Positions 15,452 through 18,995 of a stretch of DNA of 64,000 nucleotides are shown in pieces. Origin of the DNA: Promethearchaeia archaeon (lineage in GTDB: Archaea; Asgardarchaeota; Lokiarchaeia; Sigyniarchaeales; SOKP01); assembly GCA_029856045.1 (NCBI GenBank), contig JAHQWG010000050.1, forward strand, positions 1 through 64,000, written 5' to 3'. Numbering within the stretch: the first letter of the stretch is position 1; each line of letters begins with the position of its first letter. Below the pieces are notes generated by a model. The model was not told where the DNA came from and did no database searches. It saw only the letters and a list, made by a program, of their open reading frames with translations. Made by a program: the position numbers and the translations under genes.

Positions 15452-15991
15452 TTAATATGTATCCTTATCTCTATACTCTTTTACAGAGATTTCTCTTTCT
15501 GGTAGCCGATTAAATTTTTTAAGAGTATTCAAAATACATTTGACTTCAGATTTTGTTTGTAGATCATATTTTTTCATACCCTCGAGGATTTCCTTCTCAC
15601 CAAATCCTTTTTTATAAAGTTCATTAAACTTATTTACTGATTCTTCGTGAAAATAAATATATCTATTATCCAAATATACAATTAGATATGGTTTTTTGCG
15701 TTGTTTTTGAGATAATTTAAATAACTCTTCTCTAATTTTTCTCAAGGGTTTTTTCATTTTATTAGCAATTGTATCCTCTTCAATCATATAATATTCCATC
15801 ATTTTTGCTTTAAAAGATCTCTTGAAGAAGAGATTAGGAAGATATGACAACAAATATAAAATTATTGCAATACCCACTAACCAAATTGCTAGTATTGGTT
15901 CTATAAAAAAAACAAATATCACGGCTATTAAAAAAATTAGAAACCAGTTACGCCCAACACGTTTGAAAAATACAATAATTTTATTAGGCAT
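15452..15991 (-). CDS. Hypothetical protein with two N-terminal TM helices
   Basis: ORF 15452-16075; likely start MPNKII at 15991. Confidence 0.65.
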   Translation of the reverse strand: MPNKIIVFFKRVGRNWFLIFLIAVIFVFFIEPILAIWLVGIAIILYLLSYLPNLFFKRSFKAKMMEYYMIEEDTIANKMKKPLRKIREELFKLSQKQRKKPYLIVYLDNRYIYFHEESVNKFNELYKKGFGEKEILEGMKKYDLQTKSEVKCILNTLKKFNRLPEREISVKEYRDKDTY

Positions 15992-16120
15992 CGATATTTT
16001 AAGATTATTTTCAAAACTATTTAAATTTTCTAAAAGTAAATCAATTAAATTAAGAGTTTTAAGTAAAATGATCATAATAAATGTAGGAATATTTCAATTA
16101 GATTGATAATAGTGAGTAAA

Positions 16121-16159: not shown

Positions 16160-16316
16160 GCATTTCACACTAAACTGGAAGTTAAACAACAAACCGTTAC
16201 AGGTAAGTACTGATATTGCGATTATCGGGAAACTGTAAACTGTTAATTCGTTAACGGTCATAGGATGTTGGAAAAACCTGATCCCTTTCCGAACTCAGAA
16301 ATTTAGTGCGATTTGC
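16160..16316 (+). other. Precursor processing stem with a relaxed bulge-helix-bulge motif enclosing the permuted 5S
   Basis: CACTAAA(16168-74)/TTTAGTG(16302-08) outer helix; CTGG(16175-78)/TCAG(16295-98) 4-bp central helix; bulges AAG and AAA lie 3' of the central helix on each strand. Confidence 0.8.
16181..16300 (+). rRNA. rrf: 5S rRNA gene, circularly permuted (3' half 16181-16246, TTCG linker 16247-16250, 5' half 16251-16300)
   Basis: Reordered sequence folds as 5S: helix I TTAACGGT/ACTGTTAA, helix II GGATGTTG/CAACAAACC, helix III-loop C CTGATCCCTTTCCGAACTCAG, helix V TTACAG/CTGTAA, loop E AGTA/GAA, helix IV CTGATA/TATCGG with GCGA loop; 116 nt. Confidence 0.93.
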
Positions 16317-16322
16317 ATTCTA

Positions 16323-16330
16323 TTTTTTTT
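16323..16330 (+). terminator. Oligo-T terminator after the 5S precursor
   Basis: T8 tract immediately after the processing stem. Confidence 0.55.
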
Positions 16331-16392: not shown

Positions 16393-17643
16393 TTATGGAA
16401 AGATTCCCCGTAATTCAATTGCTTTTGCAACTCTTGAGACAGCAATCATATATGCCGCTATTCTATAAGACACATTTTCTTCTTTAACCAGTTTATATAC
16501 AGATTCAAATGCATTAAGAATAATTTTCTTTAGTTCTTTATTAACTCGATCTAAATCCCAATAATATGCATTTATATCCTGTACGTATTCAAAATAAGAA
16601 ACGATTACGCCTCCACCGTTAGCTAGAATATCGGGAATAATAACAGTACCCTTTTTATTAAGAATTTCATCTGCTTTTGGTGTTGTAGGTCCGTTTGCGC
16701 CCTCTAAAATAATTTGACAATTAAGATCATTTGCATTATACTCAGTTATTTGATTTTCTGTTGCTGCAGGAATTAAAATATCACATTTGATTTTAAAAAA
16801 TTCTTCATTAGGAATGATCTTAATAGAATCATCTTTAAAATCAGTAATAAGATTTCCTCTTCTTTGCCATTCTATTAATTCATCTATATTTAAACCTTTC
16901 TCAGAATAAATTGTACCATAATACTCTGAAATTGCTATTATTTTTGTTCCATATTCATACAGCCTTTTACCAATAATAGAACCAACTTTTCCAAAACCTT
17001 GAATTATTGCAGACATAGATTTTAAATCAAGACCTTCTTTTTCACAAAATTTCTCTATCACAAAAAAAATGCCAGTTCCCGTTGCTTCACTTCTACCTGG
17101 GGATCCTCCAATTTCCAAGGGTTTTCCAGTCACAACGCCAGGCATTGTAGCTCCATGTTGCATTGAATATGTATCCATCATCCAAGCCATAGTTTGAGCA
17201 TTAGTACCTACATCTGGAGCAGGAATATCTTTATCTGGTCCAATAATATTGATGATTTCTGCAGTATATCTCCTTGTAAGTCGTTCAAGTTCTCTTTGTG
17301 ATAACTTTTTAGGATCAGCACAAACTCCACCTTTAGAGCCACCTAAAGGGAGATTGTGTAGAGCGCATTTCCAAGTCATCCAAGTAGCTAATGCTTTAAC
17401 CTCATCTAAAGTAACATTAGGGTTAAAACGCACTCCACCTTTTCCAGGACCTCGAATAGTTGAATGGTGAACACGATATCCTTCGAAAATTCTAAGACTA
17501 CCATCATCCATAATAATGGGTATTGAAACAATTAACGATCTTTCTACTCTTTTAAGAAAACTGTGCGTATCTGAATTTAAATTCATTTTTTCAGCTACGA
17601 GTGCCAACTGTTGTTTTGCCATTTCAAAAGGATTAACTTCCAT
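16393..17643 (-). CDS. gdhA: Glutamate dehydrogenase (Glu/Leu/Phe/Val family), paralog 2
   Basis: GPGKGG, MTWK, GGSKGG, DIPAPDVGT, QGFGKVG, EGANGP, PDILANGGGV. Confidence 0.93.
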   Translation of the reverse strand: MEVNPFEMAKQQLALVAEKMNLNSDTHSFLKRVERSLIVSIPIIMDDGSLRIFEGYRVHHSTIRGPGKGGVRFNPNVTLDEVKALATWMTWKCALHNLPLGGSKGGVCADPKKLSQRELERLTRRYTAEIINIIGPDKDIPAPDVGTNAQTMAWMMDTYSMQHGATMPGVVTGKPLEIGGSPGRSEATGTGIFFVIEKFCEKEGLDLKSMSAIIQGFGKVGSIIGKRLYEYGTKIIAISEYYGTIYSEKGLNIDELIEWQRRGNLITDFKDDSIKIIPNEEFFKIKCDILIPAATENQITEYNANDLNCQIILEGANGPTTPKADEILNKKGTVIIPDILANGGGVIVSYFEYVQDINAYYWDLDRVNKELKKIILNAFESVYKLVKEENVSYRIAAYMIAVSRVAKAIELRGIFP

Positions 17644-17741: not shown

Positions 17742-18995
17742 TTATGGAAAAATTCCCCTTAATTGTAAGGCTTTTGCAACTCTTGAAACTGCAATCATAT
17801 AAGATGCAGTTCGAAGGGTTTCTTTCTTTTCTTTAGCAACGCTACAAACATTTTCAAACGTATCTAAGATAATCTTCTTTAGTTCTTTATTAACTCGATC
17901 TAAATCCCAATAATAAGCATTTATATCTTGAACGTATTCAAAATAAGAAACGATTACGCCTCCACCGTTAGCTAAGATATCAGGAATAATAATAGTACCC
18001 TTTTTATTAAGAATTTCATCTGCTTTTGGTGTTGTCGGTCCGTTTGCGCCCTCTAAAATGATTTTACAATCGATATCATTTGCATTATGCTTAGTAATTT
18101 GATTTTCCGTTGCAGCAGGTATCAAGAGATCGCATTTAATTTTGAATAGTTCTTCATTGGTAATTGATTTTATAGAATTTCCTTTAAAATCCTTAAGGAA
18201 TTTTCCTTTATCTCTCCATTCTATTAACTGATCTACATCAAGGGCCTTCTCAGAATATACTCCCCCCGCTAATTCAGTAATTGCAATAATCTTACATCCA
18301 TATTCATATAACTTTTTGGCAATAACCGAACCCACTTTGCCAAATCCTTGAATAACCACAGTCATTGATTTTAAATTAAGGCCAAACTTTTCGCAATATC
18401 TTTCAATTACAAAAAAAAGTCCAGTTCCTGCTGCTTCAGTTCGTCCAGGGGAACCCCCTATTTCTATTGGTTTTCCTGTAACAACTCCAGGGATTGTTTT
18501 CCCATGCTGCATTGAATATGTATCCATTATGTATGCCATAATTTGAGCATCTGTACCAATATCTGGTGCTGGAATATCTATATTAGGTCCTATCATATTA
18601 ATTATTTCTGCAGTATACCTTCTAGTAATCCATTCTAATTCTCTTTTTGATACATTTTTAGGATAAACACAAACGCCTCCTTTTGAGCCTCCAAATGGGA
18701 GTCTATGAAGGCTTGTTTTCCAAGTCATTAACATAGCTAAAGCTTTAATTTCATCAAGTGTCACCAATTGGCTATATCGTATACCACCTTTACAAGGACC
18801 AAGAACAGAGGAATGTTGAACTCGAAATCCTTCAAATATTGTTAGGTTTCCATCATCCATGATGACAGGAATTGAAACAATAACTGAGCGTTCTACGTTT
18901 TTGAGAAATTTTTCAATATTTGGAGGTAAATCTATTTTTTTTGCAATAATCTCAAGTTGTTTTTTTGCTATTTCATAAGGGTTAATTTCCCACAT
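17742..18995 (-). CDS. gdhA: Glutamate dehydrogenase, paralog 1
   Basis: Same motifs; tandem duplicate. Confidence 0.93.
   Translation of the reverse strand: MWEINPYEIAKKQLEIIAKKIDLPPNIEKFLKNVERSVIVSIPVIMDDGNLTIFEGFRVQHSSVLGPCKGGIRYSQLVTLDEIKALAMLMTWKTSLHRLPFGGSKGGVCVYPKNVSKRELEWITRRYTAEIINMIGPNIDIPAPDIGTDAQIMAYIMDTYSMQHGKTIPGVVTGKPIEIGGSPGRTEAAGTGLFFVIERYCEKFGLNLKSMTVVIQGFGKVGSVIAKKLYEYGCKIIAITELAGGVYSEKALDVDQLIEWRDKGKFLKDFKGNSIKSITNEELFKIKCDLLIPAATENQITKHNANDIDCKIILEGANGPTTPKADEILNKKGTIIIPDILANGGGVIVSYFEYVQDINAYYWDLDRVNKELKKIILDTFENVCSVAKEKKETLRTASYMIAVSRVAKALQLRGIFP

What the first reader, a model, noticed from the sequence alone, without database searches (positions are those of the whole stretch)
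16160..16330. Circularly permuted 5S rRNA gene in an Asgard-type archaeon
Seen: this stand-alone intergenic locus carries the 3' 66 nt of a 5S rRNA (GTTAAACAAC...ACTGTTAA, 16181-16246) before the 5' 50 nt (TTAACGGTCATAGG...CCGAACTCAGAA, 16251-16300). The normal termini are fused by a TTCG tetraloop capping an 8-bp helix I. When reordered, all five helices, loop C (CCGAAC), loop E (AGUA/GAA) and the GCGA loop D are intact, so this is not a decayed copy. Known: permuted tRNA genes occur in Thermofilum and some algae, and permuted 5S in some algal mitochondria. I know of no archaeal chromosomal 5S gene with this arrangement. Inference: standard 5S models would give only split or partial hits, so such genes could be routinely missed.
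Basis: partly seen in the sequence, partly recalled or inferred. Interest (0 to 1): 0.97.

Follow-up and report, generated by a model that had tools for sequence, protein, structure and literature searches.

The report
Back-to-front 5S rRNA gene, splice-restored
This Asgard archaeon, like most Asgard families sampled, writes its only 5S ribosomal RNA gene back half first, between flanks shaped like the cut signal of the tRNA-splicing enzyme, so cutting and joining would rebuild a normal 5S sequence as a 120-base ring, and standard tools miss the gene.

Summary
Confirmed. 16181-16246 is the 3' part and 16251-16300 the 5' part of a 5S rRNA, joined by a UUCG loop on an 8-bp helix I. Reordered, it scores 63.8 bits full length against a profile of colinear Asgard 5S genes; in genomic order it gives two swapped half hits. 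It is the only 5S found in this complete Lokiarchaeia genome.

The flanks form a relaxed bulge-helix-bulge whose standard cuts fall exactly at 16180/16181 and 16300/16301, so ligation rebuilds helix III in a 120-nt circle. The genome encodes an (αβ)2 splicing endonuclease with the broad-specificity loop, plus RtcB.

The layout occurs in 24 of 30 Asgard families sampled. The motif sits at the length-restoring junction in 51/69 loci versus 16/828 controls. Six families are colinear and do not group together. No reads could be obtained, so circularity is inferred. The closest precedent is Thermoproteus SRP RNA. I found no paper on it in archaea; one reports Asgard 5S as unpredictable. This scan noted the same arrangement earlier in other Asgard genomes.

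The parts
16160..16174 (+). Leader; 16168-16174 is the 5' strand of the 7-bp outer processing stem (pairs with 16302-16308), with looser pairing out to 16160/16316
16175..16181 (+). 5' half of the splicing motif: central-helix strand 16175-16178, 3-nt unpaired stretch 16179-16181, predicted cut between 16180 and 16181
16181..16246 (+). 3' part of 5S rRNA: end of helix III, loop B, helix II 3' strand, helices V and IV with loops E and D, helix I 3' strand
16247..16250 (+). UUCG tetraloop joining the normal 3' and 5' ends and capping helix I
   Evidence: UNCG-type loop in 34 of 56 homologues scored
16251..16300 (+). 5' part of 5S rRNA: helix I 5' strand, loop A, helix II 5' strand, helix III 5' strand, loop C, helix III 3' strand and its two bulged A
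16295..16301 (+). 3' half of the splicing motif: central-helix strand 16295-16298 (4 bp with 16175-16178), 3-nt bulge 16299-16301, predicted cut between 16300 and 16301
16302..16316 (+). Trailer; 3' strand of the outer processing stem
16323..16330 (+). Run of 8 T, likely archaeal terminator (inference)

Best explanation
This is the cell's working 5S rRNA gene. It is transcribed on its own as a precursor of about 160-170 nt in which leader and trailer pair. That pairing builds a relaxed bulge-helix-bulge: outer stem, 3-nt bulge, 4-bp helix, then a 3-nt stretch in an internal loop. The (αβ)2 tRNA-splicing endonuclease cuts after the second nucleotide of each 3-nt element, and RtcB joins 16300 to 16181. 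This restores helix III with its two bulged A and gives a 120-nt circle with canonical 5S sequence and fold. The circle most likely stays closed, with UUCG capping helix I, and enters the large subunit. Shown: gene order, sole copy, covariation, motif position and conservation, presence of the enzymes. Inferred: transcription, cutting, ligation, a circular mature form, ribosome loading.
For: (1) It is the only 5S-like locus in the genome, which also encodes uL18. (2) Across 20 permuted loci 93.3% of cells pair and 18 of 25 pairs change on both sides; 0/500 shuffles reach this and slid registers give 34-43%. (3) A blind scan of this locus ranked the motif with cuts at 16180/81 and 16300/01 first. 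(4) With the junction length chosen only by a colinear-5S profile, the motif passes in 39/56 loci versus 9/674 other length classes; with anchors corrected by hand, 51/69 versus 16/828. (5) The outer stem is not 5S sequence, yet its first 3 bp fit their own partner in 57/69 loci versus a mean of 10 in shuffles, with 29 different triplet pairs. (6) The cut register slides by -1, 0 or +1 between families, and 6 loci break at another place beside loop C, yet ligation gives the canonical junction. (7) The endonuclease has two subunits; the catalytic one is closest to the PDB entries 3P1Z/3AJV and carries the Crenarchaea-specific loop, which confers cutting of bulge-helix-loop motifs (PMC3241643). 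RtcB is present. (8) Relatives carry separate 30-nt inserts of splicing-motif shape inside 5S whose removal restores the canonical sequence. (9) The same route is proven for SRP RNA in Thermoproteus (PMC4731332). (10) E. coli lives with a 5S whose native ends are joined by a 4-nt connector (PMC7283268).
Against: The motif lacks the inner helix of a canonical bulge-helix-bulge in this locus and most others. 18 of 69 loci fail the strict test; several have a 29-30-nt segment between outer stem and gene start, and family f19 stays unexplained. The central helix partly reuses 5S helix III sequence, so that part of the test is not independent. The 69 loci are related, so the counts are not probabilities. 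PMC12918454 says archaeal 5S is not usually circularised.
Confidence: 0.72

Rival explanations
1. Same cutting and ligation, but the circle is an intermediate that is reopened at the helix I loop to give an ordinary linear 5S, as with permuted tRNAs.
For: Permuted tRNAs mature through a circular intermediate (PMC4267664). 5S is linear in studied archaea (own knowledge). The loop varies from 3 to 7 nt in some families, and one locus has a 31-nt insert there (L038).
Against: The linker is 4 nt in 43 of 56 homologues and UNCG-type in 34. That is a stabilising cap with no spacer to remove and no tRNA-like signal.
Confidence: 0.17
2. The RNA is cut out but not ligated and works as a linear permuted (nicked) 5S, as in brown algal mitochondria.
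For: Permuted final products exist in stramenopile mitochondria (PMC4267664). Helix III could still pair across a nick.
Against: The break lies inside helix III at its conserved bulge, not at a helix junction. Cuts restore the sequence to the nucleotide in three registers and at a second breakpoint, which only ligation would select for. RtcB is present.
Confidence: 0.08
3. A relic or an assembly artefact, with the true colinear 5S missing from the assembly.
For: The assembly has 55 contigs, and ARAGORN found only 25 tRNA genes.
Against: The same layout is found in 113/126 family members and in single-contig genomes (G061, G071, G095, G121). None of 37 family members has a full Rfam hit. Compensatory changes are abundant.
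Confidence: 0.02

Closest known systems
Permuted, circular SRP RNA of Thermoproteus tenax and T. uzoniensis (Plagens et al. 2015, PMC4731332)
   Same: A universal RNA gene 'missing' from annotation because its halves are swapped; leader and trailer form a splicing motif; a heterotetrameric endonuclease and RtcB restore a conserved element at the junction; the product is a circle.
   Different: Here the RNA is ribosomal, helix I is kept and capped rather than lost, and the trait spans 24 sampled families rather than one genus. The circle is shown there and inferred here.
Circularly permuted tRNA genes (Cyanidioschyzon merolae, as cited in PMC4267664; Thermofilum pendens, from memory)
   Same: 3' part before 5' part, splicing motif at the new ends, circular product.
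   Different: There the circle is reopened by removing a spacer between the natural ends; here the natural ends are joined by a 4-nt UUCG loop.
Permuted mitochondrial 5S rRNA of brown algae (Valach et al. 2014, PMC4267664)
   Same: 5S gene in rotated order, with helix I turned into a hairpin.
   Different: Organellar; the break is at the junction of domains alpha and gamma, and the final product stays permuted. Here the break is inside helix III and flanked by a splicing motif.
Circular or permuted archaeal 23S and pre-16S/23S rRNA (PMC7758197, PMC12918454); traces of circular 5S in Sulfolobus (PMC3326292)
   Same: Endonuclease and ligase act on an rRNA processing stem and give circles.
   Different: Those genes are colinear and circularisation is not needed to restore sequence order. 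The Sulfolobus 5S circles were rare and not confirmed by RT-PCR.

Membership tests
5S rRNA (RF00001) | Reaches the Rfam gathering score in genomic order | tested here: not met
   26.5 bits against 38; expected for swapped halves
5S rRNA (RF00001) | Reordered sequence reaches the Rfam gathering score | not testable with these tools
5S rRNA (RF00001) | Full-length homology to colinear 5S after reordering | tested here: met
   63.8 bits, model positions 5-113 of 118, profile of 12 colinear Asgard genes
5S rRNA (RF00001) | Five helices and loops A-E, supported by covariation | tested here: met
   Circle folds to the 5S shape; 18 of 25 pairs change on both sides; only 2 pairs of helix II were included in that count
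5S rRNA (RF00001) | Expressed and bound in the large subunit | not testable with these tools
Splice-restored permuted RNA gene (Thermoproteus SRP type) | Halves swapped, natural ends joined in the gene, no colinear copy | tested here: met
Splice-restored permuted RNA gene (Thermoproteus SRP type) | Leader and trailer form a 4-bp helix with a 3-nt bulge whose cuts restore the conserved junction | tested here: met
Splice-restored permuted RNA gene (Thermoproteus SRP type) | Broad-specificity (αβ)2 endonuclease and RtcB in the genome | tested here: met
   by sequence only
Splice-restored permuted RNA gene (Thermoproteus SRP type) | Cleavage in vitro and circular mature RNA in cells | not testable with these tools
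   Needs reads or biochemistry
Canonical bulge-helix-bulge (helices on both sides) | A paired helix on the inner side of the 5' bulge | tested here: not met
   0 inner pairs in this locus and most others; 3 pairs in f8 (2 of 3 loci), f11, f14 and f18. The motif is the relaxed, bulge-helix-loop type
Permuted tRNA type (circle reopened) | Removable spacer between the natural ends | tested here: not met
   4-nt loop in 43 of 56 homologues
Brown algal permuted mt-5S type | Break at the alpha/gamma junction, product left permuted | tested here: not met
   Break is inside helix III; PMC4267664

The most novel reading that the evidence does not exclude
The permuted, splice-dependent 5S gene arose once, early in Asgard archaea. 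Most Asgard ribosomes then carry a closed 5S ring, and the colinear genes of six families (including the one with cultured Lokiarchaeia) are repeated reversions. If eukaryotes branch inside this group, their colinear 5S would be a reversion too.
Probability: 0.45. Interest if true: 0.94.

Novelty: new variant of a known kind. Interest (0 to 1): 0.86.

Why it matters
A ribosomal RNA whose sequence order must be restored by the tRNA-splicing enzymes has not been described for a cellular chromosome in the literature I could search. It would make splicing essential for ribosome assembly in these archaea.

It offers an answer to a stated gap: 5S genes could not be predicted in closed Asgard genomes (PMC8813620). 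Two genomes of the sizes reported there each carry two permuted copies.

It is a rare genomic character spread through the closest archaeal relatives of eukaryotes, and it is directly testable with small-RNA reads.

Tried and rejected

A blind motif scan over all cut pairs gave high-scoring chance motifs in colinear loci too. I replaced it with homology-anchored tests with off-length controls. In one search the anchor pattern favoured the motif, so its 24/29 versus 8/4524 is not independent. In one search the anchors were wrong for L001 and L081, and the profile picked non-canonical lengths for most f10 loci; these were corrected by hand.

The sigma-70 promoter scan does not apply to archaea and gave chance-level results; TATA-like words upstream are not distinguishable in this AT-rich stretch, so the start site is unknown.

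The RpoB tree has no outgroup and weak deep nodes, so it cannot separate gain from loss. G038, G043 and G062 lacked the marker, G045 was dropped as partial, and f29 was not sampled. Archaea outside this phylum were not searched with the permuted model. Pseudogene and misassembly were rejected.

Full report
Verdict. It is a circularly permuted 5S rRNA gene whose flanks carry the signal for the tRNA-splicing endonuclease. The mechanism is known from other RNAs; its use on 5S rRNA is not in the papers I could search. Splicing and circularity were not observed here because no reads were available.

The sequence. The locus lies on the + strand between a divergent 207-aa ORF (15452-16075) and a convergent glutamate dehydrogenase-like gene (16393-17643) (name from my reading of the translation). 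Position 16181-16246 is the 3' part of 5S, 16247-16250 is TTCG, and 16251-16300 is the 5' part. Rfam finds nothing at gathering level and one 26.5-bit hit on the 5' half at loose settings. A profile built only from 12 colinear 5S genes of a sister family scores the reordered sequence at 63.8 bits over nearly the whole model, and the native order as two swapped halves of 27.6 and 20.3 bits. The joined circle folds into the five-helix shape.

Sole copy. The genome is 3.34 Mb in 55 contigs, 100% complete and 3.5% contaminated. RF00001 and the Asgard profile find no other 5S. Single 16S and 23S genes are assembled on another contig, about 75 kb apart, and uL18 is present. Named close relatives are Promethearchaeia, i.e. 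Lokiarchaeia.

The mechanism. Leader 16168-16174 pairs with trailer 16302-16308 (7 bp). Positions 16175-16178 pair with 16295-16298 (4 bp). Each strand then has three unpaired bases, 16179-16181 and 16299-16301. The endonuclease cuts after the second base of each such element (established knowledge), giving exactly 16181-16300. Ligation restores helix III with its two bulged A. A blind scan ranked this motif first in the locus, and free folding forms the outer stem, bulge and central helix unprompted. The inner side is an internal loop, so the motif is the relaxed bulge-helix-loop type. The genome has two endonuclease subunits. One has the catalytic Tyr, His and Lys and the Crenarchaea-specific loop, with best matches 3P1Z and 3AJV; the other lacks the catalytic His. 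That loop allows cutting of relaxed motifs (PMC3241643). RtcB is present.

Comparative tests. In 61 relatives only family f2 had full Rfam hits, and reading the partial hits showed swapped halves. Across 20 permuted loci the 5S helices covary: 93.3% of cells pair, against 71% in shuffles and 34-43% in slid registers. The splicing motif falls at the length-restoring junction in 39/56 loci versus 9/674 other length classes when a colinear profile picks the length, and in 51/69 versus 16/828 after anchors were corrected by hand. The outer stem, which is not 5S sequence, fits its own partner in 57/69 loci versus a mean of 10 in shuffles. The cut register is 0 in f1, f9, f16, f22, f24, f26 and f30, +1 in f5-f7, and -1 in f8, f10, f11, f14, f18, f20, f23, f25 and most of f13. 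Some f1 genomes break beside loop C instead. Apart from f19, ligation returns the canonical sequence. These loci are related, so the counts show consistency, not a p-value.

Spread. A covariance model of the permuted gene matched 90 of 151 Asgard genomes in 19 families. RF00001 passed its cut-off in 51, almost all in six other families: f2, f12, f15, f17, f21 and f29. The one exception, a 38.4-bit hit in f28, is permuted on reading. With f3-f7, 24 of 30 sampled families are permuted; I read at least one locus from each, not every hit. Within the own family 113 of 126 match. Two single-contig genomes of 3.33 and 3.08 Mb each hold two permuted copies. These sizes match the closed Heimdallarchaeum genomes of PMC8813620, which states that 5S could not be predicted; the identification rests on size alone.

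History. On an RpoB tree of 36 genomes the trait needs 5 changes (bootstrap range 3-6; strongly supported branches force at least 2). Holding the colinear genomes together is rejected (AU p about 6e-75). The tree is single-gene, unrooted and built without a mixture model. A shared break within one base of the helix III bulge in 22 families favours one origin with several reversions over many gains, but this is inference. Two routes could create the gene, both untested: a colinear gene with a splicing-type intron at the bulge, rearranged inside the intron (the idea raised for SRP RNA in PMC4731332), or a tandem duplication trimmed to half of each copy. The first is plausible because 30-nt inserts of that shape occur inside Asgard 5S genes, permuted and colinear.

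Circle or intermediate. The natural ends are joined by 4 nt in 43 of 56 homologues, UNCG-type in 34 (loops called by folding, a few miscalled). That looks like a cap kept in the product. E. coli tolerates a 5S whose ends are joined by 4 nt (PMC7283268). I put a closed mature ring at 0.72, reopening at 0.17, an unligated nicked RNA at 0.08 and a relic or artefact at 0.02.

Novelty. Searches for permuted or circular 5S returned only organellar and plant cases; the library lacks most subscription journals. The closest system is the SRP RNA of Thermoproteus. I class this as a new variant of a known kind. Earlier notes of this scan describe the same arrangement in at least ten other Asgard genomes. 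One claims junction reads for another lineage; I could not check that and do not count it. My reading was written before I opened them. They gave me one lead, the statement in PMC8813620, which I verified.

Noticed in passing
L064-L066, L068 and L071 (loop C); L063 (helix IV); L030, L037 (loop D): Inserts of exactly 30 nt inside permuted 5S genes, at three different positions, each with a 4-bp central helix and 3-nt bulges whose cuts restore the canonical sequence. Suggests mobile mini-introns in 5S rRNA.
   Followed up: partly
L101:345-375 and L103:512-544 (strand as read; family f12, colinear 5S): 30- and 32-nt inserts of splicing-motif shape just after helix III in colinear 5S genes, a few bases from the site where other families are broken.
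   Followed up: partly
L090, L092 (f18), L021 (f4), L096, L108, L109, L111 (f10): A 29-32-nt segment sits between the outer processing stem and the gene start. In f18 and f4 it has the shape of a nested intron at the junction, implying two-step splicing; in f10 it is a hairpin without a clean motif.
   Followed up: partly
L014 (f3), L098 (f27): Other breakpoints: in the 5' strand of helix II (L014) and in or near loop C (L098). Their processing motifs were not resolved.
   Followed up: no
L015, L018, L019, L025, L027, L030, L037: A second breakpoint inside family f1, beside loop C, reusing the same flanking stem. It appears in several genera, so the break has moved by about 16 nt, possibly more than once.
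   Followed up: partly
L038 (G009), helix I loop: 31-nt insert in the linker between the natural ends; no clean splicing motif found.
   Followed up: partly
L097, L112 (f19): Permuted 5S whose flanks pair but do not give the standard motif at the canonical length.
   Followed up: no
window 16393-17643 and 17742-18995, minus strand: Two tandem glutamate dehydrogenase-like paralogues (416 and 417 aa) next to the 5S gene.
   Followed up: no
G000 contig C27, about 176,200 and 251,700: 16S and 23S genes are unlinked (about 75 kb apart) and both are on a different contig from 5S.
   Followed up: no
G000 whole genome: ARAGORN finds only 25 tRNA genes, many with introns, and a tRNA-Sec on C1; others may be hidden by multiple introns or be unassembled. 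Simple motif searches for SRP and RNase P RNA found no convincing hit.
   Followed up: no
L153, L155 (f24, f16): Two long-branched families, far from the rest on the RpoB tree, share the same permuted layout and register as family f1; useful for the debate on which lineages belong to Asgard.
   Followed up: no
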